Positions 4,128-31,757 of a stretch of DNA of 31,757 nt are shown here, piece after piece (position 1 is the stretch's first letter; each line of letters begins with the position of its first letter). The DNA is taken from positions 1 to 31,757 of the forward strand of contig DAHVLZ010000008.1 of assembly GCA_027320085.1 (NCBI GenBank). The letters run 5' to 3'. The position numbers were made by a program, and so were the translations under genes. The notes beneath the pieces were generated by a model, which did not search any database, was not told the DNA's origin, and worked only from the letters and a program-made list of their open reading frames with translations. The stretch is from Pseudomonadota bacterium (lineage in GTDB: Bacteria; Pseudomonadota; Gammaproteobacteria; JAKAQQ01).

Positions 4128-4130
4128 GGA

Positions 4131-14013: not shown

Positions 14014-14077
14014 GCGCAGCTTTCATGGGCATCCGGACGGGTCGGCCGGAAACCGGGATTGGTGACAAAATAGGTCC

Positions 14078-15010: not shown

Positions 15011-15067
15011 AGGCCGTTCATGTCCCGGCCCCCCGCAAGGCGCCGGTGCCGGATTTCTGAGACCGCT

Positions 15068-18159: not shown

Positions 18160-19345
18160 CCATCACGAGGAAGCGGAAACCGGGGCGGATGATCAGGGTG
18201 GGCGGAATCTCCTCGTTGCGGCCCAGGATGGCCTGGGAGGTGTTGAGGAGCGCCTGTCCGGCAGCCGGGCCGATGACGGCGGCCGTGGGCATCGCGGGTG
18301 AAACCACGACCGTCGACTGGTTCGTGGGCAGAATGGCCGAGAGGGCGGCAATCAAGAATGAGGAACCGAAGATCTTCCAGAAATGGGTGTTGACCCCGTC
18401 ACGGAGACCGGATGCCCCATAGGCGTCGGCGGCCTGCATGCCGGCCAATGCAACCCGCCGTCCGTCGGGGAAGATCACCTCGCTGAAGGAGGCGAGAACG
18501 CGGGTCTGCCCCTGGGCGATCTGGGACGAGTAGTAACCGACCAGCGTGGCGCCCCGCGGGATCATCGAAACCGCCTCATGCACCGAATCGAAAACCGTGC
18601 GGGTGACGCGCGCCACGATCATGCCCGGCAGGTCGCTATTGATCTCGCTGAGCAGGACGGCGGGAATCACCGAGCCCGGCAGGAGGACCGGATGACGGGG
18701 CGGTGGCAGGATCACTTCGGACGCCGGGAGACCCTCCCGTCGTTCCCGACGGAGCCAGTCCCGGTTCGCCCGATGGGAGGAAGCCTCCCGGTCAAGCGGT
18801 GACTGCCGCTTCCAGGCCCCGGCCATGCGCCCGAGGAGGGCGGGACTTTCCCCACCCGATCGGGCCGGCTCGAGCTTCCGGATCAGCTGATCGAGCCTCC
18901 GGGGAGGCCGCCGCGAGGCTTGGGGCTCCGGCCCGGACCAGGCGAGGATCGGGCTGGTCCGGCCGGCGACCCCACCGGATCCCCAGACCGGGTGACGAGC
19001 CCGCCGGGCGGATTTTGTGATCGGTGGAAATACGCGTCCCGGCCGTTTGGGTGGACGAGACCGGACGGCTCGTCCCGGAGGGGGCCTGCGGGTCGGCCTG
19101 TGCCGCCCGAGGTGGCTCAGGAACTGCCGCGCCGGTCTGAGCCAGCCCGGTCCGGGGCGCAGGAAGGGATGCGGGCGGGCGGGTCCGGGGGTGGGGGTTG
19201 GCCCCCCGCCGCCGATCCGGACGAACAGGAAACTCGCCGTGACGAGCAGGAGAATGAATCCCAAAATCCAGTAATGGATCCGTCGCGAGGGTCGATGGGG
19301 GGGGCGGACCTCGGAGTCGGGGGGCCCGGGTGCATCCGGATTCAT
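18050..19345 (-). CDS. trbI: TrbI/VirB10 T4SS core protein
   Basis: N-terminal TM, Pro/Arg linker, GSVIPAVLLSEINSDLPG, GASGLRDGVNTHF and IPPTLIIRPG. Confidence 0.92.
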   Translation of the reverse strand: MNPDAPGPPDSEVRPPHRPSRRIHYWILGFILLLVTASFLFVRIGGGGPTPTPGPARPHPFLRPGPGWLRPARQFLSHLGRHRPTRRPPPGRAVRSRPPKRPGRVFPPITKSARRARHPVWGSGGVAGRTSPILAWSGPEPQASRRPPRRLDQLIRKLEPARSGGESPALLGRMAGAWKRQSPLDREASSHRANRDWLRRERREGLPASEVILPPPRHPVLLPGSVIPAVLLSEINSDLPGMIVARVTRTVFDSVHEAVSMIPRGATLVGYYSSQIAQGQTRVLASFSEVIFPDGRRVALAGMQAADAYGASGLRDGVNTHFWKIFGSSFLIAALSAILPTNQSTVVVSPAMPTAAVIGPAAGQALLNTSQAILGRNEEIPPTLIIRPGFRFLVMVSRPIAWVHARGRTGGTPRGGPVPGTPVGRSHAPRL

Positions 19346-20118
19346 GGTGAATGCCGCCGCCTCCGGTCCAGACGGATCCGCCGCCGGCCCAGTTGGAGCT
19401 CCGCGGCACGGAAGCGGTGCGGATAAAGGATCCAGCGACCGGCCACCCGGTAGTTCGCCAGGCTGAAGCGGTGGCCATGGCGAACGAAAAGGGCCGGCAT
19501 GTCTTGGACCCCGCGACCCAACTCGATGAAGGTCCGCTGCCCGTCATCGAAGATCCGGACCGGCCGCCACGGCGCCCGGCCGTGGATCCGGTAGTCGAAG
19601 TGGAGCCTCCGATACCAGAGCCGACCGGTGGGCGCCGGCGGGCGGGCGGGGAGCGGCGGTTTCGGCCGACGGGGCGCCGGGGGAGAGGGCATTCGCGGGA
19701 GTGCCCAGAGCGAACGCGTCTGCCAGCTCACGGCCTGGTACCAGGGACTGCCGGGCGGGACACTCACGAAAATGAGCTCGTAGCGGCGCCGGTTGGTGAC
19801 CAGGGTCCCCGAGGTGAAGAGTCCCGCGCGCACGGGCTTGATGAAAATGTCATGGGCGTCCCGGGCGATGACCCAACGCACGGTGTCCCCGAGGGCCAGG
19901 CTGACCGGATGTTCCCCGGCCGGCAGGATGAGGTCGGTGACCGCGTCCGGACGGGTCAGGATGGTCTCGCTCCGGTTGGGATGATAATGGAAATGGACGA
20001 TCCGGCCGATGCTGTAGACCCCGGAGGTCCGGGCCTCGAGCCCGGGAGCGGTGAGGATCATGCCCCAGCCCAGAAGCAGGATGAGGGCCGCCCGGTGATG
20101 AATACGCCCAAGGTGCAT
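19342..20118 (-). CDS. trbG: TrbG/VirB9 T4SS outer-membrane core protein
   Basis: Signal peptide, ALGDTVRW, IFIKP, TNRRRYEL, WRPVRIFDDGQRTFI and MPALF. Confidence 0.9.
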   Translation of the reverse strand: MHLGRIHHRAALILLLGWGMILTAPGLEARTSGVYSIGRIVHFHYHPNRSETILTRPDAVTDLILPAGEHPVSLALGDTVRWVIARDAHDIFIKPVRAGLFTSGTLVTNRRRYELIFVSVPPGSPWYQAVSWQTRSLWALPRMPSPPAPRRPKPPLPARPPAPTGRLWYRRLHFDYRIHGRAPWRPVRIFDDGQRTFIELGRGVQDMPALFVRHGHRFSLANYRVAGRWILYPHRFRAAELQLGRRRIRLDRRRRHSP

Positions 20119-20157
20119 CAGGACCTCCCCGCCGGCGGCTTCGAGCCGCCGGCTGAC

Positions 20158-20868
20158 TTACCAATTTCTCTGGATGTTGAAGTTCGTGATGAAAAGTCCG
20201 ATCGGATCCTTGAGGACCGCGCTCGAGGTGCGCGGCGGCACGATCAGGTAGTTCAGGGTGAGGACCCACTCCGTCCGCTGGACCCCCGCGGACCGGTTGG
20301 ACCGTCGGGTGGTCCGGCAACGGATCAGGGCCACGTTTCCGGGAAGAAAGCTCAGGCTCTCGAGTCTCACCGTCCGCACGCGGTTCGGATGACGGGTGAG
20401 GACCGCGAGCGGTGCGGTGGTGCGGACCCAGTGGGTGAACTGGCCCACGGCAGCGCCCCGGGTCCACTCGTAGTCGGCCGCGAGGCTGCTGGCCGTGAGC
20501 GCCGGATTGAGGCTCAGCAGACGGACCGTCCAGCGTCCGAGAAAGTAACGCAGACTGTTGTGTCCGGGAGTGAAGGACAGCTGGCCCAGGGATTGGACCG
20601 TCACCCGACCGGAGGCGTGTTCGCGAACCAGGTAGGGCACCCGGTTGCCATCCGGACCCTGCGACAGGAAGGCCACCCCCAGGAGGATGAGGGCCACGCT
20701 TTCCAGGACGAGCAGCAGGAAGAGCCGGTTGCGGGCCAGGAGCGGAGCGGCGAAACGCTCGAAGTAACGCCCGGCATCCGGCGCGTCGGGTGGAAGGTGG
20801 CGCCTCTCCCCACCCGGGCTCTCATCCGGCGCCGCCCGGCGGAACCTCGGGATCCCGTTCAGAGCCAT
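20158..20868 (-). CDS. trbF: TrbF/VirB8 T4SS protein
   Basis: Single TM, VPYLV, and C-terminal DPIGLFITNFNI (NP.G..V..F motif). Start is approximate. Confidence 0.85.
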   Translation of the reverse strand: MALNGIPRFRRAAPDESPGGERRHLPPDAPDAGRYFERFAAPLLARNRLFLLLVLESVALILLGVAFLSQGPDGNRVPYLVREHASGRVTVQSLGQLSFTPGHNSLRYFLGRWTVRLLSLNPALTASSLAADYEWTRGAAVGQFTHWVRTTAPLAVLTRHPNRVRTVRLESLSFLPGNVALIRCRTTRRSNRSAGVQRTEWVLTLNYLIVPPRTSSAVLKDPIGLFITNFNIQRNW

Positions 20869-21125
20869 CGGATCGCCTGGGAGCAGAGGAGATGGATCAG
20901 GTAGGTGAAGCTGAGCAGGACGCCGACCCCGAACCGGATCCGGCGGTCCTGCCATTCACACGCCCCCAGCCAGAGGACCAGCGCCACGGGATGCTCTTCG
21001 AAGCCCGCCGGAGGGGCGAGGGTCCGTCTCTCCCCCGGTGATCGTCGCCGGCGTTCGGCCAGGGCCTCGGGCCAGCTCCTGCCGTCGACCGCAGGCAGCC
21101 TGAAAGTGAACCGCCTCCGCCTCAT
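20859..21125 (-). CDS. Small (88 aa) putative membrane protein inside the trb operon
   Basis: The ATG overlaps the trbL stop (ATGA) and the stop overlaps the trbF start. Arg-rich N-terminus and hydrophobic C-terminus. It fills the whole intergenic gap. Confidence 0.5.
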   Translation of the reverse strand: MRRRRFTFRLPAVDGRSWPEALAERRRRSPGERRTLAPPAGFEEHPVALVLWLGACEWQDRRIRFGVGVLLSFTYLIHLLCSQAIRWL

Positions 21126-22153
21126 TCGCCCCCCGCCGCCCAGGAACGCCCGATCCCGCCCAGGTGCGAACCGAGCGCACTCCAGGTTCCTGTCCCGGCT
21201 CCGCCGTGGCCGCTCGTGAGATGGCCCACGATGGCCGGAACCTGCCGCAAAAGAAGCAGGATGAAGGAGGAGGCCAGGAGAAGATAGAAGACATAAACGA
21301 AGATCAAGGCGCCGCTCCACAGGGTGGAACCCCGGGCCGTGGGGGCCGCGAGTGCCTGCGCGAGGGCATTGACCTGGGCGATGGAGGAAGAGAGCAGGAT
21401 GGATGCGATCATGAGCACAATGGCGCCCACGATCTTGTAGAGCCCGGCCCCCAGGAGATAGCGAAACCAGCCGTGGAACAGCCCGGCGAGATAGGGCAGG
21501 ACGAGGCAGGGCACGAGCAGCGGTCCGATCGCAACCCCGATCGCCGTGAGCGCCACGCCCATGAAGAAGACGCCGGCAAAGGCCAGGTAGGCCAGGGTCA
21601 GGAGGGCCACCACGATCACCATGAGAAAACTGGCCACGAAGGCGTCCAGAAGCACGATGAGATCGGCTCCGATGCGGGTCCATCCGGTCTCAATCGCCGA
21701 TCCCACCCGGAAAATCGGCAGTGACTGCCAGAGTCTCGCGACCGCACCCAGGAAGGAATGCGTGGCCGCCTCGAGCACCCCCGCCGACCAATGGGCCGGC
21801 CAGGGGTGGCCGGAACCCAGAATCACGTTCGCGACCGCATTGAAACCACCATCGAAGGCCCGGGTCAACGGGAGGTAGTCGTGGAGGATCCAGGCCGCCA
21901 GTCCCCAGACCATGACGCCGCGGAGGACCAGACGAATCAGGTTTTCCTGCGCCCGGCCGGAGAGTGCAAGGGACAGGCCGAGAAGGATGAGTCCGAGTTC
22001 GGTCAGGAGATAAAACAGGGAAAAGGGACCGCCGATCACGAGCTCGAGCAGGCGGTCGGCAATCATCCGGCTGGAAGCCCGGATTTCGTGGAAGACGAGT
22101 CGCAAGGCGGCACCCATCGTGGGGAGCACGGTGACTTCCGGGTGGAGGCTCAT
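21122..22153 (-). CDS. trbL: TrbL/VirB6 polytopic T4SS membrane protein
   Basis: Multiple TMs, IGVAIGPLLVP.L......LF.GW and QVPAIVGHLTSG. The ATG overlaps the trbJ stop. Confidence 0.85.
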   Translation of the reverse strand: MSLHPEVTVLPTMGAALRLVFHEIRASSRMIADRLLELVIGGPFSLFYLLTELGLILLGLSLALSGRAQENLIRLVLRGVMVWGLAAWILHDYLPLTRAFDGGFNAVANVILGSGHPWPAHWSAGVLEAATHSFLGAVARLWQSLPIFRVGSAIETGWTRIGADLIVLLDAFVASFLMVIVVALLTLAYLAFAGVFFMGVALTAIGVAIGPLLVPCLVLPYLAGLFHGWFRYLLGAGLYKIVGAIVLMIASILLSSSIAQVNALAQALAAPTARGSTLWSGALIFVYVFYLLLASSFILLLLRQVPAIVGHLTSGHGGAGTGTWSALGSHLGGIGRSWAAGGE

Positions 22154-23007
22154 GAGGGTGGGGGCGGAACGCCGGGATGGGGAGGATGCGGAATCACCGG
22201 TTTGAGTGACCCATTCTCGCGATCGAGCCAGCCTGCAAGTCCCGCTCCGGCGTTCCCGGCCGCGAGACGGGACGTGAGGCTCCGCACCCGCCGGTCCAGC
22301 CGCCGGTGCCGCCCGATCCAACCGGAGGTCGCGGCCAAAGACTCGCTCCGCGCACTCGCCCGGGCCCGTTCGAGTGCAGCCAGGACGGCGAGTTCGCCGG
22401 TATCGGCCCGGGCAACCACGCCCAGGGAGGCATTCAGGGACTCGAGCTGGCCCTTCATCGATCTCGCCACCGGAAGGGTGGATTCGACGAGACGCAGCCG
22501 GGCATAACTTCTGGCAATCGAGCGGAGGATGGCATTGTCCTCGTGAACCTGGGCATCCGCCTCCGCCTCGTGCCGGGTCACGCCCTGGCGCAGGATCCGA
22601 TCGTATCGACTCCAGCTGAGATGGGCCGAAGCCAGGGTACGGTTCAGGGAAAGCAGGCGGTGGTAGCCGGCATGGAGCGATCCCGCGCTCCCCTGGAGCG
22701 CAGTCAGGAAAACCCGGTACTCGTGAATCGTCCGGGTGACGCCGGTGACGCTCCCCAGGGCGGCCAGGGTCGCGGATGGCAGATTCCTGAGGGAGGCGAT
22801 TTCCATCTCGAGCGTTTCATACTGGATCAGGCTGCTCCGGATTTCCCACTCGACGTTCCGGATCGAATTGAGCGCGGTCACGGTATTGCGGGCAAAGTTC
22901 AGGGGATCGAAAACCGTGCTGCCGCTCGCCAGGGACCAGGCGGGCCGAGCCAGGAGTGCGAAGGGGACCAGCGCAAGGGAGGCGAGTCGGCGACGGGCAT
23001 CAACCAT
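22150..23007 (-). CDS. trbJ: TrbJ/VirB5-like protein
   Basis: Signal peptide followed by TVFDPLNFARN, helical body and position between trbE and trbL. Confidence 0.8.
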   Translation of the reverse strand: MVDARRRLASLALVPFALLARPAWSLASGSTVFDPLNFARNTVTALNSIRNVEWEIRSSLIQYETLEMEIASLRNLPSATLAALGSVTGVTRTIHEYRVFLTALQGSAGSLHAGYHRLLSLNRTLASAHLSWSRYDRILRQGVTRHEAEADAQVHEDNAILRSIARSYARLRLVESTLPVARSMKGQLESLNASLGVVARADTGELAVLAALERARASARSESLAATSGWIGRHRRLDRRVRSLTSRLAAGNAGAGLAGWLDRENGSLKPVIPHPPHPGVPPPPS

Positions 23008-25489
23008 GGAGGACTTCCCCGAGATAGGCCCGCTGCCAGTCGTCCGCGTGGGCCGCCCGGGCCTGTTGGAAACCGCGCTGTGCGCGGGCGTCCGAACGCA
23101 GGCCGGCCAACACCACCGGTGGGAAGGAACAGCGGAGAAGACGCCCGAAGCCGGGCCGGGTCAGGTAGTAGTCGCGTCCGGCAACCGCCGTCTCGATCCG
23201 GGCGATCTGTTCGGGCGAAAGACCGAACAGTCGGGCGTAAAGCTCGTGCTGGCCGTGGATCTGCGGGTTCGGGAGGAAAATTCGTGTGGGAATGTTCTCG
23301 AGCAGAAGTTTTCCGGCCGGCAGACGCGAGAGTTCCTCGACCGACTGGGTCACGAGCAGGAGGAAGGCGTTTTTCTTGGCGAGTGTCCGGACCCATTCCT
23401 CGATCTTGCCGGCAAAGAAGGGATCCGAGAGGATGAACCACGCCTCCTCCACCGAAATCAGGGTGGGTCTTCCATCCAGCCGCCGAAGGATCCGGTGGAA
23501 GAGCGCGTCCAGAACGAGCCGGGCGACCCGGGGCTGGCGGAACAGCCGTCCCACCTCAAAGGCCGCCAGGCGATCCGGCGCATCCCGGTCACCGGATGAT
23601 CCGTCAAAACACCAGCCGAAGGCCCCGCCCTGGATCCAGGGTGCGAGCGCCGTGACCAGTGATTGCTTGGGCAAAAGCTGCGCCAGGAGCGAAAGCCGCC
23701 ACTCCGAAGGGGGCAGTGCGGCGAGTGCGGCCAGGGCCTGGTCGATGTGTCCGGCATCGTCCGGCTCGAGCCGGGTGCCTTCCGACTCGAGCAGGGCCAC
23801 GAGCCAGGGGTGAAGCCAGGCCCGCCCCTCCGGATCCGCGAGTGGGTCCAGGGGATTGAGGATGGGAGTGGCGGTCGGTCCGGGTGCCAGGTCGCGGTAC
23901 TGTCCGCCCAGGAGGGCCACCAGGATCTCGGCGCTCCGGTCCTTGTCGAACAGGAAGGCCTGCGTGTCCGGCAGTCCGAGCCAGCAGGCAATCAGGAAGT
24001 TCGCAAAAACGCTTTTCCCGGAACGGGTGGGCCCGACGATCAGGGTATGGCCGTTTTGGCCGTGGTGAAAATGGAAATGAAAGAGTGTCCGGCGCCGGGT
24101 TTCGAAGCGGGCGAGCGCCGGTAACGCCTTCCCGTCCGCTCCCGTCAGGTGGGGATTTTCGGCTCGCCCGTCCGGCAGGCTGCGGGCCAGGGCCAGGTCG
24201 GCCGCGTTCGCGTCCGAAACCAGAAACCAGCGCACGGGCTCCGCCCACTGGCCGGGCAGGGTCCCCGCCCATGCGGAAAGCGCGTGCATCCGCTCGGTCA
24301 GGGCCATGAATCCCAGCGCATGGACGGCCGCCTCGATCCGGGCGGCGACGGCATCGGCGGCCTCGGGCGAGGGGCCGTAACAGACGAGACTGAGATTGAG
24401 GTAGCCGTACTGGCCCTCCTGGAGATACTCGAGGGCCCGGCTCGCTTCCCGGCTGGCCTGAACGTGCTGCTCGCGGTCCGCCGGAACATCCTTCCGGGTC
24501 AGCATTTCCCGGAGGTACGCCCGCCAGCTCTTCTCGAGCGCCCGGTGATGGTTTCGAACCCGGCTGATCCAGGCCTCGGCGGCTGCCGCCGGGATCGGAC
24601 GGAAGGCCAGGCTCACGGTCAGGTTGCCCTCGACCTCGAGCAGGGCATCCAGCATGCCCGGATAGGTTCCCGGTTCCTCCCCCTCGCCATGCATCCGCGG
24701 CCAGGCCTTGAGGGTCACGAGACTCGCCCACGTTTCCGGGCCCTCCGGCCAGTGCAACTGGTGCCCGGCCACCGCGAGGGTGCGGTCGGGCAATGCATCG
24801 TCGAGGTAGGCCCCCCGGGGAATCCTGAGTTCTGAACGTTCGTCCGGGGCGAGCCGGTTGCGCAGAAAGGCCAGAAGGCGGGATCCCTCGAGCCTCTCCC
24901 AGTCCCAGCCGGCGAGTGTGCCCACAAAGCGTTCCAGCCGTTTCTCGTGCTCGACCAGGAGTTCAGTCATCTCGAGTGTGCTGTACGGCCAGGCGGCCGA
25001 AGTCGAGAACTGGCTTTTCAGGGCCATCCAAAGGGCCATGGCCGGGCTTTTGCCGCGCGCGGTCTCGAGTCCGACCCGCTGCCAGAAATGATCGCGACGT
25101 GCCTGCGGCCGGGTCATGATCGCGAGGTAATGGCGGTTTTGGTAAACCGTTCGCGAGACTCCCGGCCGTGCGAGGTGGTCATGGCCGAGATGCTCCCAGC
25201 CCAGTGCCGGGGACCTCACCCCCTCTTCACGTCTCCGGTCGACGATCCACCAATAGTCCCCGTTGACTCCGGCCAGACGGTAGGCATGTTCGAGCCTGGC
25301 CGTCTCGACCTGCAAGGCCTCTTTTTCCAAAGACTCCACATCCACGCCGCCCAGCCGGTAAGCACTGAGGAGGCTCCCGTCCTTGAGCACACAGACGGCC
25401 TCGCCGAGGCGCAGCATCCACGGGATCAGATCCGAAAAGGGACGCGAGGACCTTCGAAAATCGCGACGTTTCCGCTCCAGGTCACGCAT
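23000..25489 (-). CDS. trbE: TrbE/VirB4 ATPase
   Basis: FSDLIPW, KDGSLL, GHTLIVGPTRSGKS (Walker A), FDKDRS, VEEAW (Walker B) and PTRIFLPN. Start ATG 25489 just after the trbD stop. Confidence 0.93.
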   Translation of the reverse strand: MRDLERKRRDFRRSSRPFSDLIPWMLRLGEAVCVLKDGSLLSAYRLGGVDVESLEKEALQVETARLEHAYRLAGVNGDYWWIVDRRREEGVRSPALGWEHLGHDHLARPGVSRTVYQNRHYLAIMTRPQARRDHFWQRVGLETARGKSPAMALWMALKSQFSTSAAWPYSTLEMTELLVEHEKRLERFVGTLAGWDWERLEGSRLLAFLRNRLAPDERSELRIPRGAYLDDALPDRTLAVAGHQLHWPEGPETWASLVTLKAWPRMHGEGEEPGTYPGMLDALLEVEGNLTVSLAFRPIPAAAAEAWISRVRNHHRALEKSWRAYLREMLTRKDVPADREQHVQASREASRALEYLQEGQYGYLNLSLVCYGPSPEAADAVAARIEAAVHALGFMALTERMHALSAWAGTLPGQWAEPVRWFLVSDANAADLALARSLPDGRAENPHLTGADGKALPALARFETRRRTLFHFHFHHGQNGHTLIVGPTRSGKSVFANFLIACWLGLPDTQAFLFDKDRSAEILVALLGGQYRDLAPGPTATPILNPLDPLADPEGRAWLHPWLVALLESEGTRLEPDDAGHIDQALAALAALPPSEWRLSLLAQLLPKQSLVTALAPWIQGGAFGWCFDGSSGDRDAPDRLAAFEVGRLFRQPRVARLVLDALFHRILRRLDGRPTLISVEEAWFILSDPFFAGKIEEWVRTLAKKNAFLLLVTQSVEELSRLPAGKLLLENIPTRIFLPNPQIHGQHELYARLFGLSPEQIARIETAVAGRDYYLTRPGFGRLLRCSFPPVVLAGLRSDARAQRGFQQARAAHADDWQRAYLGEVLHG

Positions 25490-25493
25490 GGGA

Positions 25494-25802
25494 TCAGCAG
25501 CAAGTGAGTCCCGGCGCGAAACCGGATGGACGGTGACGCCGGCAGTCCGCGTGGGGCCAGGGATCATAGGTGGGGCCCTGGCGGGCATAGCGCAGGTAGA
25601 TTTCGCGGGCCTGGGGCTCCTTGCGGCCCAAGTAGACCAGGCCCCCGTGAAGGAGCAAGAAAACCGGCGCGAGAAACCACAAGCCGGCACCGGCGATGAA
25701 CGCGACGGCCAGAATCCCGTTCAGGGCCACGAGGGGGCGTTCCCCTCCGAAGCTGAGCAGGGGTTCGGTGAGAACGGGATAAAGCGGCGAACGCCGGTCC
25801 AT
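25494..25802 (-). CDS. trbD: TrbD/VirB3 protein
   Basis: LTEPLLSFGGER, hydrophobic hairpin and KEPQAREIYLRY. Confidence 0.85.
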   Translation of the reverse strand: MDRRSPLYPVLTEPLLSFGGERPLVALNGILAVAFIAGAGLWFLAPVFLLLHGGLVYLGRKEPQAREIYLRYARQGPTYDPWPHADCRRHRPSGFAPGLTCC

Positions 25803-25810
25803 GAGCGGAT

Positions 25811-26119
25811 TCACGAAAAAAACAGGTTGAGCCAGGCACTCGCGAAGAACACCAGGCTGAGCCCCAGGGCCACACGCAAAAACAGGCTGAGGAATCCCCG
25901 CACTTCTCCGAAGGCCACGAGAAAGCCCAGGACGATGAGCAGGAGGGTGGCCACGAGACGGGCCGTGGTTCCACTGAGGTCCTCGACCATGGTTTCGAGA
26001 ACACCGTCCCACGGCAAGGTTCCGGCGGCCCGGGCCAGTACCGGCAGGCATCCGGTGGCGAGCCCCAGCGTGAAGCCCAGGATTTTTCGGTGCTGGGAAG
26101 GACGTCTGTTCTCAATCAT
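25811..26119 (-). CDS. trbC: TrbC/VirB2 pilin
   Basis: GGAG RBS, signal ending ARA, LPWDGVL......LSG..A, AFGE and two hydrophobic helices. Confidence 0.87.
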   Translation of the reverse strand: MIENRRPSQHRKILGFTLGLATGCLPVLARAAGTLPWDGVLETMVEDLSGTTARLVATLLLIVLGFLVAFGEVRGFLSLFLRVALGLSLVFFASAWLNLFFS

Positions 26120-26145
26120 TGCGATCTCCAGGAAAAAAAACCGTC

Positions 26146-27213
26146 TCAAACCCGGTCCCGATCCGTGATCCGGACCGGTTCCAGGCGGTAACCCTCCGCG
26201 TGTGCGGGGCCCACCGCCATGATCTCGGCGGGTTTCCGCCTACCGGAAACCCGCTCCATGTGCACGACGTAATCGAAGGCCGAGGCGACCTGGTTCCGGA
26301 TGGCCGCCTGGGGCCAGTCGAGGCCCGCCGTGAGCACCAGGTTTTCGAGGCGGACGAGACCTTCCCGCGCACTGTTGGCATGCACGCTCGTGAGCGTGCC
26401 CCGGTGCCCCGTATTGCAGGCCAGGAGGAGATCGAAGGCCTCGGCTCCCCGGACCTCTCCGATCAGGAGGCGGTCCGGTCGCAAACGAAGCGCCAGCCGC
26501 ACGAGGGAGCGGGCCTCGAGTCCCGGTGCATCGCGGGCCTCCAGGGACACCCAGTTGGCCGTGGAGATTCGGAGTTCCGGTGTCTCCTCGATGCTGATCA
26601 CCCGTTCGTCCGGCGCAAGTGCGGTGAGCAGACCGTTCAAAAACGTCGTTTTTCCGGAGGAGGTCCCGCCAGTGACCAGAAAATTCTTGCGCGCCCGGAT
26701 CTCCTCCTGGAACCAGCCCGCCCACCCGGACGAAAGACGGGACCGCTCCCCCGGCCGCTCCCCCGGCCGGTTCCCCGGCCGGTTCCCCGGCCCGGGCGAG
26801 GCTGGCTGGCCGATCGGGGCACAGAGGGCTTCCAGGCTGGGAGTCCGGGACTGCGGTTTCCGCATGCTGAGCACATCTCCCCGCACCGAAACCGGATGGC
26901 AGACGGCCGTGATCCGGAGATCCTCGAAACGCGTGTCCAGATAGGCCGGTGCCGGGTAGCCCGTTCCGATATCCCGGCCGGCGAGCCGGCCGAGCGCCGT
27001 GATGGCGCTGCGGATGGCGAGCGGTGGGAGCACGAGGCCGGGAGACTCGAAACGGCCCCGGGACTCAACCCAGATCTCGTCCGGCCGATTGACCATGATT
27101 TCCTCGACCTCGGGATCCGCAAGCCACGGTTGGAGGGGTGCGAACAGGAGGCCGAGAAGGGTGGTGGCGGGAGTCGTGGTCGACATGCCGACATTGGAGC
27201 ATGCCGGAGGCAT
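26146..27213 (-). CDS. trbB: TrbB/VirB11 traffic ATPase
   Basis: EIMVN, GGTSSGKTT, IEETPEL, LRLRPDRLLIGEVRG and NTGHRG.L.SVHANS. The start could be 27186. Confidence 0.92.
   Translation of the reverse strand: MPPACSNVGMSTTTPATTLLGLLFAPLQPWLADPEVEEIMVNRPDEIWVESRGRFESPGLVLPPLAIRSAITALGRLAGRDIGTGYPAPAYLDTRFEDLRITAVCHPVSVRGDVLSMRKPQSRTPSLEALCAPIGQPASPGPGNRPGNRPGERPGERSRLSSGWAGWFQEEIRARKNFLVTGGTSSGKTTFLNGLLTALAPDERVISIEETPELRISTANWVSLEARDAPGLEARSLVRLALRLRPDRLLIGEVRGAEAFDLLLACNTGHRGTLTSVHANSAREGLVRLENLVLTAGLDWPQAAIRNQVASAFDYVVHMERVSGRRKPAEIMAVGPAHAEGYRLEPVRITDRDRV
26743..26790 (-). repeat. 4 x 12-bp in-frame tandem repeat (PGNR PGNR PGER PGER) in trbB
   Basis: ccgctcccccgg x2 followed by ccggttccccgg x2. 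Confidence 0.9.
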
Positions 27214-27413: not shown

Positions 27414-28184
27414 ATGCCAATGGCAGACCCTCGCGAGCGGTTCCTCGAGCGCTTCGCCCGAGCACTCTTTCACACTCCCCACTCAGGATTTGTGCTGAAG
27501 GGCGGAACCGCCTTGCGCGCGCTTTTCGGCCCCGAACGCCTGACCCGGGATATCGACCTCGATTTCACGGGAGCCAGGCGCAGTGCCGACTCGTTATTTG
27601 CGAGCGTACGCCGCGCCATTGAGACCGCGGCACGGGGGCTTGAACTCAAGGATCTCACGGTCTCCGAGTCCAGCAAGGCCGAAATGAGCCCGCGCTTCAG
27701 GGTGAAGTTCACGACGCCGGAGGGGAGGGAGCACCATGTCGAGATTGAAGTTTCACGGGATCCGAAGCGTGCGCCGCCCGGGAAGGTGGTGCAGCAGGCT
27801 TTCGTGCCGGAGGCCGCGCCCGGGATCGCCCGTTTCTGGGTCGACATCTATGATGAACCCACGCTTGCCGCGACCAAACTGTCGGCGCTCCTCGGCCGCG
27901 AAACCCCTCGTGATGTCTACGACCTCGATCTCTTGAGGGGCAAGACCGGGATGATGGATGCGAAGCTCATCGAGTGGGCGGTCGACCGGGCGCAACTCGG
28001 GGGAGAGGATCCCATCCAGGTCCTCTGGGCGCATCTCGACGGCTTGAGCTATGGACGTTGTGAGGCTGAGCTCATTCCGTCACTCAAGCCCGGGGTGGCC
28101 GGGCGCCTCGACGAGACCGAATGGACTGCCATGAAACTCAGGGTCGGCGAGTATGCCGAACGCGTCCTCGGGACGGTCAAATGA
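27414..28184 (+). CDS. AbiEii/MenT-like (DUF1814) nucleotidyltransferase toxin
   Basis: FVLKGGTALR.....RLTRDIDLD, IEIEVS and KLSALLGR..PRDVYDL. Confidence 0.9.
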   Translation: MPMADPRERFLERFARALFHTPHSGFVLKGGTALRALFGPERLTRDIDLDFTGARRSADSLFASVRRAIETAARGLELKDLTVSESSKAEMSPRFRVKFTTPEGREHHVEIEVSRDPKRAPPGKVVQQAFVPEAAPGIARFWVDIYDEPTLAATKLSALLGRETPRDVYDLDLLRGKTGMMDAKLIEWAVDRAQLGGEDPIQVLWAHLDGLSYGRCEAELIPSLKPGVAGRLDETEWTAMKLRVGEYAERVLGTVK

Positions 28185-28843
28185 AAGCCTGGCAGAGGCG
28201 TCTCGAAGAAACGCTCAGGGCGACCGATGCCCCGGCCGTGTTGAGTCGGGATCTCCTCACCCGCATGGCGCGCACGGCCCGCGAAGGGGAGCCTGTGCCC
28301 ACGAGCAGCCTCACGCATTGGCTCAAGGGCGCGCGTGCCGCCGAGCACCTCGTTCCGGTCGTCCGGGGGCTCTATCTGAATCAATACCGGAGAAGCCCCG
28401 TCTCGCTGGTGGATGCGGCACATCTGCTCGTGGCCGATGCGGTTATTTCCCTGAACACGGTGCTGGGGGACGGGGGGATACTCAACAATCCGTCACGAAT
28501 TGTGACGGCGATGGTGCCGATTGACCGCCGCGCGCCACCGCCGAAGCTTGGGCGGCGTACGACACGGGTGGGGACCGTCCATTTCTTCGGTTTGCCGCGG
28601 CGGATCCTCGAGGCGGGCCGGCCGGAAGACCGGCTCGAATCCACGACCCCGCGCGATCACGCGCGTGCCACACCCGAGAAGGCACTCCTGGATTGGCTTT
28701 ACCTGTCAGAAAGCCCGCGTAGCCGCCGGACGTTACCGCCCAAGGGCGACTTGGATCTCGACTTGCTGGATCGCGCAAGACTCAAGCGCCTTGCGGCGGC
28801 GATGGGATTGACCCGTGCGCTCTCAAGCTGGTGGACGAGCTGA
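28181..28843 (+). CDS. AbiEi-like type IV antitoxin
   Basis: wHTH-like N-terminus (LVPVVRGLYLN), AVISLNTVL...G and ATPEKALLDWLYL. The ATG overlaps the toxin stop. Confidence 0.78.
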   Translation: MKAWQRRLEETLRATDAPAVLSRDLLTRMARTAREGEPVPTSSLTHWLKGARAAEHLVPVVRGLYLNQYRRSPVSLVDAAHLLVADAVISLNTVLGDGGILNNPSRIVTAMVPIDRRAPPPKLGRRTTRVGTVHFFGLPRRILEAGRPEDRLESTTPRDHARATPEKALLDWLYLSESPRSRRTLPPKGDLDLDLLDRARLKRLAAAMGLTRALSSWWTS

Positions 28844-28957: not shown

Positions 28958-29300
28958 GAGTGAACTGTGCCAGCTGATGTGGGAGTGATGCGGTGTGTTG
29001 GATCAAGGTACTTCCACTTCACGGTCTTGGGGGCCTTGTTGTACTGACGGATATAGCGCATGAGCTTCCCCTTGAGATCCGGGACCGAGGTGAACACGCC
29101 ACGGGCGATGACATCGCGCTCGATCCTGGGAAACCACCACTCGACCGGGTTGAGCCGGGAGGAGTATGTCGGGGCAAGTGCAGATGAACCCGCGGATGCA
29201 TCACCCGGAAGTCCCCGACCCGCCCAGGCTTGTGGGCCAAGAGGTTGTCGGCCATGACATGGATCTCCCGGCCCCGAGAGTGGTTGACCACAATGTGATA
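28958..29300 (-). mobile_element. IS630-family transposase 3' remnant (frameshifted)
   Basis: EIHVMADNLLAHK / PTYSSRLNPVEWWFPRIERDVIARGVFTSVPDLKGKLMRYIRQYN. Confidence 0.87.
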
Positions 29301-29332: not shown

Positions 29333-29779
29333 CTAGAGCGATACGCCAGGAGGACACACGAACCACGTGAAAAGCTGCCCCAGCCTCTTCTGCTTCGCTC
29401 TGCTGAAATCACCCCAAACTTGACCATGGAAGGGATTCTCTCCCGTTGGATCGTATCCGACTTGAAAGCCTTCACGTCGAAGCGACCCCGCAACAAATCG
29501 GATGGAGCCGGTCCAATGGGGTCTTGTCACCCATTCTCTGGCATCATGCCCAGCCTCCTCAATCTGCTGTTGGAGGTCAATGGACATGCCGCCATTTGTA
29601 CCTGTAGAAGCTCGAAAAGCCATGGAAGAGAGCCTCTGGCCGCCAATTACTTTCTCGTCCGGGACGAGCCAGAGTTTGGGGATCCGTCTGATAATTCCAT
29701 CCGTTGGCTGAATTCCCCCATGGTCATGGGGTGTTACATTTCCCGCGCCATCACGCGGGGGCTCATAAAGCGCCGGCAT
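29333..29779 (-). CDS. Hypothetical protein, possible ADP-ribosyltransferase-fold toxin
   Basis: Clean 148-aa ORF overlapping the upstream gene, with motif pattern IIRRI...SSMAF...GMSIDL...NPFHGQV. The fold call is inference. Confidence 0.6.
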   Translation of the reverse strand: MPALYEPPRDGAGNVTPHDHGGIQPTDGIIRRIPKLWLVPDEKVIGGQRLSSMAFRASTGTNGGMSIDLQQQIEEAGHDAREWVTRPHWTGSIRFVAGSLRREGFQVGYDPTGENPFHGQVWGDFSRAKQKRLGQLFTWFVCPPGVSL

Positions 29780-30254
29780 GCTGTTCCGTGACGTTCTGCA
29801 CCCACTTTGCAACGATTGAAAAGTCTGTCTTCAGTTCCCGTTCCTCGCCACCGGAATTTTCGTCATCAACCCTGGTGTACCACGCGCGGACGTTGTTCGG
29901 AGCCAGAACGTGCAATTCGATGTCGCCTTTTGCAGTGTGCCACTCGAGTTGAAGGTCTCCTCCAACCCCCGGAACGATCATTGGCGCTGGAGTAGCGGGT
30001 CCGCAAATTCTCTCAAGCACCCGGAATGCGAATACCGCGTTCACGAAGCTCACTGGCATCGCCCGGTATCCATCCCAACCGGGTTCCAACTTTACAAGCT
30101 CCCCCAACTTTTTGGTGATGTCCGCACTCCACAGCGGCTTAACCTCGTCAATCAGGACGCGCGCCTCAAACTGGAGCGGCGTAAACCGCGTGGAGCTGCT
30201 TGTCCTGCAAGACGACACATCAAGGTCGTGATTCATCAAGGCCGGAATGCTCAC
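29763..30254 (-). CDS. Hypothetical protein ('GWDGY' family)
   Basis: The GTG start overlaps the upstream TGA (GTGA). Motifs L..LEPGWDGY.A.P.S and P.IVP...GDLQLEW. Confidence 0.7.
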   Translation of the reverse strand: MSIPALMNHDLDVSSCRTSSSTRFTPLQFEARVLIDEVKPLWSADITKKLGELVKLEPGWDGYRAMPVSFVNAVFAFRVLERICGPATPAPMIVPGVGGDLQLEWHTAKGDIELHVLAPNNVRAWYTRVDDENSGGEERELKTDFSIVAKWVQNVTEQHAGAL

Positions 30255-31066
30255 CTAGTCCGTCTCCATTTCACATGAGCCGCTTTTGTCGTCAGGTCAG
30301 CAAATCGGGACACGATCAAACTCCTCCCCTTCGCCAGGAATTCAAAAGCCGACTCCTTAGAGTTATCCGTTGGAGCACCGCGCGCAGTCAGGGACATGAC
30401 AATGATCCGCTTCCCCTTTTGCGTGATGGCTATCTGGCATTCGCACGTCAACCGGCCCCAAGGCGGGCCATCAGCATCCCGGATGATCTCCCGAAACCCG
30501 ATCGAGAAGTCCTCCGGTTCAGGCCCACCAAAATCGACAAAGTGCAGCCAGTCCGAGACCTTCTGCCTGTCAGCAAGTTCGAAAGGGATATGATTAACGT
30601 AGGTTATTTCGCACTGACTAATAAACAACGACTGCGGAGACAACTTGCCGAAGTATTCCCCCAGCTTTTCGAGCTCATCACGGAACTGGGTCATCATGGC
30701 TTCAAATCGGGGATACTCGTTCTCCTCATTCCCAACCTTCCGCCAATTGTGAAGGAGGCGATCCTGCTGGAATTGAATCAGCTCAGTGCCATCAGGTCGC
30801 ACGAACCAAAAGCGATCGTGCACCGGTCCCGGCATGACCTCAAACTTGACCAATCGTGCCGGAAGGCCAAAAGTCTCAAACATCGGAGCAATCGGCTCGT
30901 GCTCCTCGACCTTCGGGAACCCAGAGCGAAATAGCCCCCATACTTCTCCTGCATTGATTTGCCGATAGCCTTTCGGCGGACTAAACTGGACACCCAGCAC
31001 CACTTCATTAATCGGCGGCGCCTCAAAATCAGGCAGGTCGGCGGGTCTCTTTGGAATATGCGCCAC
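30251..31066 (-). CDS. TIGR04255-family protein
   Basis: N-terminal LPDFEAPPINEVVLGVQF, RFWF, LIQFQQDRLLHNWRK, YPRFE, EITYVNHI and C-terminal F.DLTT..AH..W. GTG start 31066 after GAGG. Confidence 0.8.
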   Translation of the reverse strand: MAHIPKRPADLPDFEAPPINEVVLGVQFSPPKGYRQINAGEVWGLFRSGFPKVEEHEPIAPMFETFGLPARLVKFEVMPGPVHDRFWFVRPDGTELIQFQQDRLLHNWRKVGNEENEYPRFEAMMTQFRDELEKLGEYFGKLSPQSLFISQCEITYVNHIPFELADRQKVSDWLHFVDFGGPEPEDFSIGFREIIRDADGPPWGRLTCECQIAITQKGKRIIVMSLTARGAPTDNSKESAFEFLAKGRSLIVSRFADLTTKAAHVKWRRTR

Positions 31067-31617
31067 AGTTAAAGATGTCCTCACCGTTCTTGAGTTGCGC
31101 TGGACGAGCACTCGGTGCGTTCACAATCACTTCCCGCTCCTGAACACCAATTTTGCTCGTTTGGCAGCGCTCCGGAAATTTCCACCCTCCACCAGATGCC
31201 CCGGGGGATGACTCCCCTACTGGCATTTTGGGGATAGTTTGCTTGTGCGAGCGTCCCTTCTTGGGCTGGGGACTGAGGCACGCATTGAGGCATCCTCACC
31301 CGATCAGCCACCCGTCGGAACCACATGCCACGCGCCATGACCGGCTCTGTGCCAGCAGAGCCCAACGTGTTCAGCTGCAATCAATGTTAGCCCTCTCCAG
31401 GCCGCAAGGCAATAAAAGCATACTGCATGCTTGTCGCTCACACGTGCGTCTATTCAACCTTATTTTGCACAAAACAGCATTGCCGCAGTGGGCACCATGT
31501 CAACCATCGTTTTGCAAATGGACGAAAAATCACCGGACCGCCATAGAGGAGGCGGAAGGTGGGATTCCAGCTGCTCTGGGGTTCCTGGGTTAGCCCGCCT
31601 GGACGCAGTGGGGCGAA

Positions 31618-31757
31618 TCAGACCGTGAAGGAGGACCCGCACCCGCAGGTGGTCACGGCATTGGGGTTCCGGATCACGAACTGCTCGCCTTCGGCATCGT
31701 TCGCGTAGTCAATCTCCGCCCCCTGGAGATACTGCAGGCTGAGCGGATCAACCAGGA
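31618..31757 (-). CDS. erpA: Iron-sulfur cluster insertion protein ErpA (3' part, runs off the window)
   Basis: My translation is [45 protein letters not shown]. It is not in the ORF track. Confidence 0.92.

What the first reader, a model, noticed from the sequence alone, without database searches (positions are those of the whole stretch)
29333..31066. Coupled three-gene operon (TIGR04255 + GWDGY protein + putative ART-like enzyme): candidate new tripartite toxin/anti-phage system
Seen: three overlapping genes (GTGA overlap at 30251-30254, 17-bp overlap at 29763-29779). They are visibly less GC-rich than the host genes and lie between erpA and an IS630 scar plus AbiE pair. Known: TIGR04255 is a sporadically distributed family with no function known to me. 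Toxin-antitoxin-chaperone systems such as CmdTAC pair an ADP-ribosyltransferase toxin with an antitoxin and a SecB-like sensor. Inferred: the last gene shows an R...S.AF...S.D...NP.H pattern like small ART-fold toxins. The middle gene has a low-complexity Ser/Thr-rich N-terminal extension that could act as a degron or chaperone-binding tag. The TIGR04255 protein could be a non-SecB chaperone or sensor. Together this would be a TAC-like architecture with a different third component.
Basis: partly seen in the sequence, partly recalled or inferred. Interest (0 to 1): 0.8.

Follow-up and report, generated by a model that had tools for sequence, protein, structure and literature searches.

The report
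Three-gene ART-fold toxin-antitoxin-like cassette
A horizontally acquired, widely scattered three-gene cassette encodes a small enzyme with the fold of ADP-ribosylating toxins, a partner predicted to plug its active site, and a third protein of an uncharacterised family that heads many different three-gene cassettes, so it looks like an unstudied kind of bacterial toxin-antitoxin or immunity module.

Summary
In detail: three translationally coupled minus-strand genes with lower GC than the host, lying between erpA and an IS630 scar/AbiEii/conjugation genes.

- **g1** is a TIGR04255 protein (59.5 bits, cut-off 30).
- **g2** (GWDGY motif) and **g3** have no Pfam or NCBIfam family.
- **Conservation:** the order g1-g2-g3 is kept in 44 of 47 testable loci from many bacterial lineages. 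g3 was found in 0 of 40 relatives of this genome.
- **g3 fold:** a confident model (pLDDT 92) matches almost only ADP-ribosyltransferase-superfamily structures (KptA/Tpt1, HopF, Tse2, DarT, diphtheria toxin and others), at modest Z (6.3 or less).
- **g2-g3 binding:** a complex model passes its controls (0.85 against 0.30). The invariant GWDGY loop sits on g3's invariant R32/S66/H118 face.
- **Known relatives:** g2, and weakly g3, are distant relatives of the uncharacterised PADLOC candidate PDC-M32.
- **TIGR04255:** it is a two-repeat alpha/beta protein with few conserved polar residues. It heads tightly coupled operons with at least four recurring unrelated partner pairs (26 of 29 loci sampled).
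- **Chaperone idea:** copies with broken or missing g1 but intact g2-g3 argue against a TAC-type addiction chaperone.

Verdict: a new tripartite variant of ART-toxin/antitoxin modules. Toxicity, chemistry and phage defence are untested.

The parts
30251..31066 (-). g1: TIGR04255-family protein (271 aa from GTG 31066; alternative GTG start at 31111 gives 286 aa). First gene of the operon and the proposed accessory sensor/regulator component.
   Evidence: NCBIfam TIGR04255 E 4.2e-16, 59.5 bits against cut-off 30, positions 2-251 of 252. Homologue alignments start at residues 1-7 of the 31066 form. AF2 model pLDDT 87.9 with two beta-alpha-beta4-alpha repeats. Foldseek finds TBP at E 2.4e-5 but TM only 0.25-0.33. 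VIA finds phosphagen-kinase catalytic domains at Z 8.7/8.5 and McsB at 7.7.
29763..30254 (-). g2: 163-aa GWDGY-domain protein, the proposed antitoxin. It has a variable Ser/Thr-rich N-terminal ~44 residues (30123-30254) and a conserved core with GWDGY (30066-30080) and VPGxxGDLQLEWH...DIELHV.
   Evidence: No Pfam or NCBIfam family. Matches the PADLOC PDC-M32A C-terminal third at E 9e-11; hhalign probability 95%, E 3.3e-8. 24 homologues found, 29 invariant columns in the 23 aligned. Predicted to bind g3.
29333..29779 (-). g3: 148-aa minimal ADP-ribosyltransferase-fold protein, the proposed toxin/effector.
   Evidence: No family in Pfam, NCBIfam, PADLOC or PHROGs at E<=1. 32 homologues. 831 representative clusters at E<=1e-3. 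AF2 pLDDT 92.1. The VIA top 50 is almost entirely ART-superfamily chains, with best Z 6.3.
29426..29689 (-). Candidate active-site face of g3: R31/R32, S51/S52-x-A-F55, S66-x-D68, D110-P111, N115-P-x-H118-G-Q120.
   Evidence: These residues are invariant or >=90% conserved in 30 sequences. R, the S of the 'SV' motif and H are the only invariant columns apart from the initiator Met in the divergent Y-type-1 relatives. R32, S51-53, S66, N115 and H118 lie in the predicted g2 interface.
30251..30254 (-). GTGA overlap: stop of g1 and start of g2 (translational coupling).
   Evidence: Read directly from the sequence. Overlaps of -1 to -8 nt between TIGR04255 and the next gene recur in 11 other loci.
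29763..29779 (-). 17-bp overlap between the end of g2 and the ATG of g3.
   Evidence: Read directly from the sequence.
31067..31620 (-). Upstream non-coding region between erpA and g1, the presumed promoter region.
   Evidence: No sigma-70-like site on the minus strand, no notable repeats, and no Rfam match. The promoter was not located.

Best explanation
A self-contained, horizontally mobile three-gene toxin-antitoxin-like conflict cassette. g3 is a minimal ADP-ribosyltransferase-fold enzyme. It most likely uses NAD+ either to modify a macromolecule or to deplete NAD+, and so arrests growth. g2 is its cognate neutraliser: it binds g3 directly and covers the conserved R32/S66/H118 pocket with its invariant GWDGY loop and the GDLQLEWH sheet. 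g1 (TIGR04255) is not needed for neutralisation. It is an accessory sensor or regulator that decides when g3 is released, for example on phage infection or loss of the element. What is shown: gene structure, conservation of the trio, horizontal acquisition, the fold of g3, distant kinship to PDC-M32, and the modular use of TIGR04255. What is predicted by a model: g2-g3 binding and its interface. What is inferred: toxicity, NAD+ chemistry, the role of g1, and defence or addiction as the biological function.
For: (1) Tight coupling: a GTGA overlap and a 17-bp overlap.
(2) Conservation: g1-g2-g3 in the same order and strand in 44 of 47 loci where upstream DNA exists, spanning Alpha-, Beta- and Gammaproteobacteria and a Pirellulaceae MAG; a Chloroflexota (Chloroheliaceae) MAG, L038, carries g2-g3 without g1.
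(3) Horizontal acquisition: g3 found in 0 of 40 relatives (3 same genus, 6 same family, 31 same class), with GC 0.53-0.57 against 0.62-0.70 for the host.
(4) Context: the cassette lies beside AbiEii, an IS630 scar, Trb conjugation genes and HipBA.
(5) g3 fold: pLDDT 92. The VIA search of 48,161 chains gave only 70 with Z>=2. By their titles and my knowledge of those families, at least 44 of the 50 listed are ARTs, Tpt1/KptA, DarT, RES or NADase toxins. Top rows are KptA Z 6.3 (90 aligned, rmsd 2.9), Tpt1 6.2, AvrPphF 5.8 and Tse2 5.4. Foldseek's weak top rows also recur on Tpt1/KptA.
(6) Complex model of g3+g2: ipSAE 0.85 against a best control of 0.30. That mark was reached by 58 of 80 solved complexes and 2 of 110 mismatched pairs. 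The runs share >=85% of contacts and partner pLDDT is >=74. The interface joins g2 W60-Y63 and residues 92-115 to g3 R32, S51-53, S66, N115 and H118. No similar complex is known to me, so a pass from memory is unlikely.
(7) Kinship to a defence candidate: g2 matches the C-terminal domain of PDC-M32A (E 9e-11; hhalign 95%). PDC-M32B aligns colinearly with g3, motif on motif (hhalign E 0.0024), and is linked through intermediate Y-type-1 proteins (E 7e-5 and 0.0013). One PDC-M32 copy sits between hsdM and hsdS.
(8) g1 is dispensable for viability while g2-g3 stay intact: L034 has CGA>TGA, L026 a frameshift, and L038 no g1.
Against: - No experiment exists on any of the three families: 0 papers for TIGR04255, and one paper that only lists PDC-M32.
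- Structural Z scores for g3 are modest (<=6.3) and Foldseek gave no hit at E<=0.001. The ART assignment rests on how consistent the hit list is.
- The position matching the catalytic Glu of R-S-E transferases is Gln in this copy (E in 16, Q in 13, D in 1 of 30) and hydrophobic in PDC-M32B. Transferase activity is therefore uncertain.
- g3 gave no match in PADLOC, in 72,556 plasmids, in 50,697 phages, or in IMG/VR contigs.
- Only 7 of 32 examined loci have clearly mobile or defence neighbours. The rest sit between housekeeping or unknown genes, so defence-island enrichment is not shown.
- In Nitrobacter L048, g3 looks intact while g1 is gone and g2 is cut to its last third. This is awkward for a constitutive toxin, unless the deletion also removed the promoter.
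- g2 has no recognisable DNA-binding domain.
Confidence: 0.55

Rival explanations
1. g3 is the toxin and g2 is an unstable antitoxin whose Ser/Thr-rich N-terminal tail is a chaperone-addiction element. g1 (TIGR04255) is a non-SecB chaperone that must hold g2 for the cell to survive, and phage proteins titrate the chaperone.
For: There are three coupled genes. g2 has a variable N-terminal extension of about 45-100 residues before the conserved domain in all type-1 partners. TIGR04255 conserves mostly hydrophobic core positions and few polar ones across 35 divergent members, as expected of a binder rather than an enzyme. It is shared by unrelated X-Y pairs, as SecB-like chaperones are shared by different TA families (the TAC comparison is from my knowledge and the abstract listing).
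Against: g1 is broken in L034 and L026 and absent in L038, with intact g2-g3. This should be lethal in a chaperone-addicted system. SecB is not among the listed structural matches of g1 (this absence is not decisive). The gene order is reversed relative to CmdTAC. No g1-g2 binding test could be run.
Confidence: 0.12
2. Not a toxin. g3 is a Tpt1/KptA-like NAD+-dependent nucleic-acid-modifying or repair enzyme (2'-phosphate removal or 5'-phosphate ADP-ribose capping), and g2 and g1 are regulatory or substrate-presenting subunits.
For: The best structural matches are the NAD+ lobes of KptA/Tpt1: Z 6.3, 6.2, 5.0 and 4.4, plus Foldseek's weak rows. The acidic catalytic residue is not conserved, as in the Tpt1 clade (from my knowledge).
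Against: g3 spans only the NAD+ lobe (model residues 15-141 against chain residues 85-180 of KptA) and lacks the N-terminal RNA-binding lobe. The distribution is sporadic, with 0 of 40 relatives carrying it. It has mobile-element neighbours. Its partner is predicted to cover the conserved pocket, and it is kin to a defence candidate. All of this fits a conflict system better than housekeeping.
Confidence: 0.1
3. An interbacterial effector-immunity pair, like Tse2-Tsi2, Tne2-Tni2 or TreX-TriX. g3 would be exported, g2 would be the immunity protein and g1 an adaptor.
For: Tse2, Tne2, TreX and TreTu are among the structural matches of g3 (Z 5.4-3.4). Type IV secretion genes lie nearby in the window.
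Against: The binder is encoded upstream of the toxin, as in type II TA systems. g3 is a bare 148-aa domain with no delivery domain, and nearly all of the top 150 relatives are 140-160 aa stand-alone proteins or shorter fragments. The 32 loci examined show no secretion-system neighbours, and their flanks differ from genome to genome. The Trb genes in the window are conjugation genes of a mobile element.
Confidence: 0.06

Closest known systems
PADLOC candidate system PDC-M32 (genes A ~375 aa and B ~125 aa; function untested)
   Same: The C-terminal ~120 residues of PDC-M32A are homologous to the g2 core (E 9e-11; hhalign 95%). The overlapping downstream gene B has the same length class and the same colinear motifs as g3: R-[RQ], [ST]SxAF, [ML]SV, DP..P.H. 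One copy lies inside a type I restriction-modification operon.
   Different: PDC-M32 has two genes. Its A protein has its own ~250-aa N-terminal domain, with no detectable relation to TIGR04255 (hhalign probability 0.2%). g3 does not hit any PDC-M32B model at E<=1, and profile-profile support is weak (probability 12%). PDC-M32 itself is uncharacterised; one paper only lists it (passages read).
CmdTAC (ART toxin CmdT, antitoxin CmdA, SecB-like chaperone CmdC)
   Same: It is also tripartite, with an ART-fold effector and a protein antitoxin. It is a plausible working analogy for a third component that couples toxin release to infection (PMC11618068, seen only as a search listing and abstract start; the rest is recalled).
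   Different: No PADLOC model other than PDC-M32A matched any of the three proteins. The third component is TIGR04255, a two-repeat alpha/beta protein, not SecB-like in the listed matches. The gene order differs. g1 loss appears to be tolerated.
ART-superfamily toxin-antitoxin pairs: DarTG, RES-Xre (MbcTA), ParST
   Same: These have a small ART-fold toxin encoded after, and overlapping, its neutraliser. DarT and RES chains are among the g3 matches (Z 4.7, 4.3, 2.8). In RES-Xre the antitoxin blocks the active site (recalled), as is predicted here.
   Different: g2 is neither a macrodomain nor an Xre-HTH protein. g3 has no sequence match to DUF4433/DarT or RES models in Pfam. There is an extra first gene.
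Tpt1/KptA RNA 2'-phosphotransferase
   Same: It is the best structural match to g3 (Z 6.3 and 6.2).
   Different: Only the NAD+ lobe is matched, there is no sequence similarity, and the genomic behaviour is that of a mobile cassette.

Membership tests
TIGR04255 (NCBIfam) | Full-length match above the curated cut-off of 30 bits | tested here: met
   g1 scores 59.5 bits, E 4.2e-16, over model positions 2-251 of 252. The genome scan gives the same result.
ADP-ribosyltransferase superfamily (g3) | Split beta-sheet NAD+-binding ART fold | tested here: met
   The model has pLDDT 92. The VIA wide search gave only 70 chains with Z>=2, and at least 44 of the 50 listed are ART-superfamily by title. The best is Z 6.3 with rmsd 2.9 over 90 residues. 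Z is modest and Foldseek alone was not significant.
ADP-ribosyltransferase superfamily (g3) | Catalytic triad (R-S-E or H-Y-E) in strands 1, 2 and 5 | tested here: inconclusive
   R31/R32 and S66 (also S51/S52) are invariant or nearly so. The strand-5 position is H118-G-[E16/Q13/D1 of 30], and Q in the window copy. Assigning motifs to strands rests on predicted secondary structure, not on a residue-level superposition.
ADP-ribosyltransferase superfamily (g3) | NAD+ binding and ADP-ribose transfer or NAD+ cleavage | not testable with these tools
   Needs biochemistry.
PDC-M32 (PADLOC candidate) | Full-length PDC-M32A (~375 aa) followed by PDC-M32B | tested here: not met
   g2 matches only profile positions ~250-371 of 375. 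g3 has no PDC-M32B hit at E<=1. g1 is unrelated to the N-terminal part of A. True members L053-L057 score E 1e-38 to 1e-52 in the genome scan; for L053, direct PADLOC scans give A 3e-151 and B 2e-49.
Toxin-antitoxin-chaperone (TAC) systems | SecB-like chaperone that is required to stabilise the antitoxin | tested here: inconclusive
   No SecB family hit for g1, and SecB is not among the listed fold matches. Copies without a functional g1 keep g2-g3 intact, which argues against addiction. Binding was not tested.
Type II toxin-antitoxin module | Antitoxin gene upstream of and overlapping the toxin gene, with direct protein-protein neutralisation | tested here: met
   There is a 17-bp overlap. 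The complex model scores 0.85 against a best control of 0.30, with the conserved motifs in contact. This is a prediction only.
Type II toxin-antitoxin module | Toxicity of the toxin alone and rescue by the antitoxin | not testable with these tools
   Needs expression experiments.

The most novel reading that the evidence does not exclude
TIGR04255 marks a large, unrecognised class of modular three-gene conflict systems. A common first-gene 'hub' protein (a two-repeat TBP-like or guanidino-kinase-like alpha/beta fold with no universally conserved catalytic residues) is translationally coupled to interchangeable adaptor-effector pairs. At least four recurring pairs, unrelated by BLASTP, turned up in only 29 loci. 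One of them is the GWDGY antitoxin plus a previously unnamed R-S-H/E clade of minimal ADP-ribosyltransferase-fold toxins, to which PDC-M32B also belongs. On this reading, TIGR04255 would be a new kind of infection sensor or release switch, not a chaperone.
Probability: 0.3. Interest if true: 0.85.

Novelty: new variant of a known kind. Interest (0 to 1): 0.66.

Why it matters
All three proteins belong to families with no experimental data. TIGR04255 is an NCBI-named family with no literature in the library searched.

If the model holds, it would do three things:
- It would add a new clade of minimal ART-fold toxins, with an unusual R-S-H/[EQ] site, to the NAD+-based conflict repertoire.
- It would give a first functional handle on the GWDGY domain, which also occurs in the PADLOC candidate PDC-M32.
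- It would assign a role to TIGR04255 as the shared first gene of many different three-gene cassettes.

The predicted g2-g3 interface gives precise, cheap mutational tests. Natural g1-less variants offer a ready comparison for what the third component does.

Tried and rejected
- **Sequence families for g2 and g3:** Pfam, NCBIfam and PHROGs gave nothing meaningful. PDB sequence searches with profiles of g1, g2 and g3 gave only chance-level rows.
- **Foldseek on g3:** no hit at E<=0.001. The fold call comes from VIA.
- **Fusion test:** I asked whether PDC-M32A is a TIGR04255+g2 fusion. The 'longer' search for g2 found none, NCBIfam found no TIGR04255 in L053 A, and hhalign of g1 against A gave probability 0.2%. 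The idea was rejected at sequence level.
- **g3 on plasmids, phages and IMG/VR:** no matches.
- **Promoter, terminator, repeat, Rfam and tRNA scans around the cassette:** nothing above background.
- **ESM Atlas:** only unnamed clusters for g3 and g2. One structural neighbour cluster of g2 has PhdYeFM_antitox in 16% of members, which is a lead only.
- **Partner genes of other TIGR04255 operons:** 47 of 49 have no Pfam hit above the family's own cut-off. The two that pass are MazF in L070 and HTH_3 in L072 (E 3.4e-5, 24.2 bits against cut-off 23); further weak HTH matches fall below cut-off. The same partners, minus the L070 pair, gave no NCBIfam hit apart from one weak match far below cut-off. 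In PADLOC only type-1 partners hit PDC-M32.
- **g1 as an enzyme of the guanidino-kinase/glutamine-synthetase type:** considered because of Z 8.7/8.5/7.7 over about 180-200 residues. It was not adopted because Z is middling, rmsd is 4.4-5.1, and few polar residues are conserved family-wide.
- **Correlation of divergence among the three genes:** Spearman 0.32-0.57 over 42 loci. This is weak, and the loci are not independent.
Full report
**Observation.** The minus strand of 29333-31111 carries three ORFs.
- g1 runs 30251-31066. This GTG start is the one the homologue alignments support; an upstream GTG at 31111 is possible.
- g2 runs 29763-30254, and g3 runs 29333-29779.
- The sequence shows the GTGA stop/start overlap at 30251-30254, with a GGAG nine bases before the g2 start, and the 17-bp g2/g3 overlap.
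- GC is 0.53-0.57 here, against 0.62-0.70 in the neighbouring host and element genes.
To the right lies the end of an Fe-S assembly (ErpA/IscA-type) gene. To the left lie the last ~44 residues of an IS630 transposase, AbiEii, then Trb-type conjugation genes (TrbB/VirB11-like, TrbC, TrbE, TrbL, TrbI) and, further on, HipBA. The ORF beside AbiEii has no family hit, so an AbiE pair is not shown.

**Family assignments.** g1 is a bona fide TIGR04255 protein (59.5 bits, cut-off 30, full length), and it is the only one in this 2.14-Mb genome. g2 and g3 have no Pfam or NCBIfam family. The only meaningful hit is g2 to the C-terminal third of the PADLOC candidate PDC-M32A (E 9e-11).

**Are the genes real and linked?** g3 has 32 homologues in the 5.8-billion-protein set. 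A profile of 30 of them (two fragments dropped) finds 831 representative clusters at E<=1e-3 among 1.84 billion. Nearly all of the top 150 are 140-160 aa stand-alone proteins or shorter fragments. g2 has 24 homologues.

A pattern scan of 185,579 species genomes returned 51 loci encoding g3 relatives.
- In 4 of them the contig starts at g3, leaving 47 testable loci.
- 44 of the 47 have g1, g2 and g3 in the same order and strand. In two of the 44, g1 is disrupted: L034 has CGA>TGA relative to its sister L035, and L026 has a one-base frameshift, which could be an assembly error.
- The three exceptions are L038 (g2+g3 only), L003 (g2 N-terminally cut, no g1) and L048 (g1 gone and g2 reduced to its last third, apparently by a deletion upstream, with g3 intact).
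- The hosts are Alpha-, Beta- and Gammaproteobacteria and a Pirellulaceae MAG, with g1-less or contig-cut copies in Chloroflexota.
- None of 40 relatives of this genome has g3.
- Flanks differ from genome to genome. Taking the two nearest ORFs on each side in 32 loci (128 ORFs), 7 loci have integrase, transposase, plasmid Rep/ArdC, phage, restriction-modification or TA neighbours. The rest have housekeeping or unknown genes.

So the trio is a compact, mobile, selfish-looking cassette. Defence-island enrichment is not demonstrated.

**g3.** The AlphaFold model built from 30 sequences is confident (pLDDT 92.1, pTM 0.86). Foldseek against the PDB gave no significant hit, but its weak rows recur on Tpt1/KptA and AvrPphF.

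The Foldseek-independent VIA search of 48,161 representative chains found only 70 with Z>=2. The 50 listed are almost entirely ADP-ribosyltransferase-superfamily proteins:
- KptA (Z 6.3, rmsd 2.9, 90 residues), mouse Tpt1 (6.2), AvrPphF/HopF (5.8), Tse2 (5.4) and DarT (4.7, 4.3).
- Below these come Scabin, diphtheria toxin, TreX, Tne2, pierisin, NarE, Certhrax, pertussis toxin, C3, SidE-family mART, RES and SPN.

The Z values are modest, and the tool warns that middling Z is common. The argument is the near-exclusive membership of the list, which I judged from the entry titles and my knowledge of those families.

Conserved positions, placed on the predicted strands, give R31/R32 on the first core strand, S51/S52-x-A-F, G-M-S66-x-D68 on a strand followed by a helix, D110-P111, and N115-P-x-H118-G-[E/Q]120 at the start of a late strand. 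The residue where R-S-E transferases have their catalytic Glu is E in 16, Q in 13 (including this copy) and D in 1 of 30. Whether g3 transfers ADP-ribose, cleaves NAD+ or does Tpt1-like chemistry cannot be decided here.

**g2 and its relation to g3.** A complex model of g3 with g2, each supplied with its own alignment, scored ipSAE 0.85, 0.86 and 0.85 in three runs. The controls scored 0.00, 0.30 and 0.00. That mark was reached by 58 of 80 solved complexes and 2 of 110 mismatched pairs. The runs share >=85% of contacts and partner pLDDT is >=74.

The interface is informative. The invariant W60-D61-G62-Y63 loop and the invariant 92-115 segment of g2 touch R32, S51-53, S66, N115 and H118 of g3, which is the conserved face. 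This is the geometry expected of an antitoxin that occludes an active site. It is a model's confidence, not a measurement.

**Relation to PDC-M32.** Full PDC-M32 systems were found in five genomes of the phylum sample. In L053 the pair (A E 3e-151, B E 2e-49) sits between hsdM and hsdS.
- The g2 profile aligns to the last ~120 residues of A (hhalign 95%, E 3.3e-8).
- B proteins (alignment A3) align colinearly with g3 over 96 columns, with R-R/R-Q, SSxAF/TSQAF, MSV/LSV and DP..NPxH/DP.PFPEH in register. Support is weak, however (E 0.0024, probability 12%).
- Intermediate proteins (the Y type-1 set below) link them: B against Y1 gives probability 63%, E 7e-5, and g3 against Y1 gives E 0.0013. 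In that divergent set, apart from the initiator Met, only R, the S of 'SV' and the H of 'NPxH' are invariant.
- The N-terminal 250 residues of A show no relation to TIGR04255.

The window's cassette is therefore a distant relative of PDC-M32 with a different architecture. It is not a member.

**g1 / TIGR04255.** The model (pLDDT 87.9) has two beta-alpha-beta4-alpha repeats.
- Foldseek finds TBP at E 2.4e-5 but with TM only 0.25-0.33, so the topology of the repeats matches but their mutual arrangement does not.
- VIA's best full-length matches are the catalytic domains of phosphagen kinases (Z 8.7 and 8.5, about 190-200 residues, rmsd 4.4-5.1) and the protein arginine kinase McsB (7.7). Half-domain matches to SRPBCC, AdoMetDC and TBP folds follow.
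- I do not claim kinase function. Across 35 divergent TIGR04255 proteins the conserved columns are mostly hydrophobic, with only a few polar ones (E21, Y118, Y156, N158, R248). The many polar residues conserved within the g1 subfamily are subfamily-specific. That pattern suits a binding surface matched to its partners.

**TIGR04255 as a shared first gene.** In a 401-genome sample of the phylum, 32 genomes carry TIGR04255.
- In 26 of the 29 loci fetched, the next gene on the same strand starts within 24 nt or overlaps, and 23 have a similarly coupled third gene. ORF starts were taken as the longest ORF, which exaggerates some overlaps. One of the coupled pairs, in L070, is an ordinary MazF module.
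- BLASTP clustering gives four recurring partner pairs plus several further recurring or single X and Y types:
  1. A GWDGY protein plus a small g3/M32B-like protein (7 loci).
  2. A 108-129 aa protein plus a ~190-208 aa protein (5 loci; the five Y form one cluster, the X fall into two).
  3. An HTH-containing protein plus a 205-308 aa protein (4 pairs; a fifth locus, L085, has only the X).
  4. A 176-213 aa protein plus a 225-233 aa protein with HLAWH and GLTCxTF motifs (3 loci).
  5. In addition, L087 and L088 share a related X (only L087 has a Y in the fetched stretch), and L067, L075 and L089 have partners that cluster with nothing.
- Almost none of these has a Pfam, NCBIfam or PADLOC family.

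**Mechanism.** Putting this together, I read the cassette as follows.
- g3 is an ART-fold, NAD+-using growth-arresting effector.
- g2 is its active-site-covering antitoxin.
- g1 is a shared accessory component.
- Because copies with broken or missing g1 keep g2-g3 intact, g1 is unlikely to be an addiction chaperone of the TAC kind. A sensor or release switch, or a regulator, fits better.

Toxicity, NAD+ use, the trigger and any anti-phage effect are inferences. The intact g3 beside a truncated g2 in L048 is a caution, although the same deletion probably removed the promoter.

**Literature.** There were no papers for TIGR04255 or its InterPro synonyms. One paper names PDC-M32 only as a PADLOC hit in Sinorhizobium prophages (PMC12429752, passages read). 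CmdTAC and TAC papers were seen only as search listings and abstract starts, and comparisons to them rest on my knowledge. Supplements were not consulted.

**Verdict.** The ART and co-occurrence parts of the interpretation are supported, and the chaperone analogy is not. This is a new tripartite variant of ART-toxin/antitoxin modules, and its most interesting aspect is the modular role of TIGR04255.

Noticed in passing
These fall into four recurring partner pairs, unrelated by BLASTP, plus several singletons, and almost all partners lack any family annotation.
   Followed up: partly
L064:243-944, L065:383-1072, L068:2734-3411: The third genes of one TIGR04255 operon type share HLAWH and GLTC[AS]TF motifs, which are reminiscent of a Cys/His hydrolase. 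They have no Pfam, PADLOC or NCBIfam hit.
   Followed up: no
L053:1486-3028: A complete PDC-M32 A+B pair is inserted between the hsdM and hsdS genes of a type I restriction-modification operon.
   Followed up: partly
L034:3729-4538; L026:3686-4517; L048:4775-5426: These are natural decay variants. g1 has a CGA>TGA nonsense codon in L034 (its sister L035 is intact). g1 is frameshifted in L026. g1 is lost and g2 truncated in L048, where g3 is still intact.
   Followed up: yes
window 2796-4568 (-): A HipA-like kinase toxin (HipA_C E 3.6e-52) sits next to an HTH (HipB-like) gene, forming another TA module in the same window.
   Followed up: no
window 18050-27213 (-): A set of Trb-type conjugative type IV secretion genes is present: TrbI, TrbL, TrbE/VirB4-like, TrbC pilin and a VirB11/TrbB-like ATPase. 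This points to an integrated conjugative element whose edge the cassette adjoins.
   Followed up: no
window 27414-28843 (+): AbiEii (E 2.6e-26) is followed, not preceded, by an overlapping 240-aa ORF with no family hit. The usual AbiEi partner was not recognised.
   Followed up: partly
window about 29038-29172 (-): Only the last ~44 residues of an IS630 transposase remain (NCBIfam E 4e-6), directly downstream of g3.
   Followed up: partly
window 13997-16324 (-) and 19351-20904 (+): Two long ORFs (775 and 517 aa) have no Pfam hit. They may be spurious frames in GC-rich DNA or unknown element genes.
   Followed up: no
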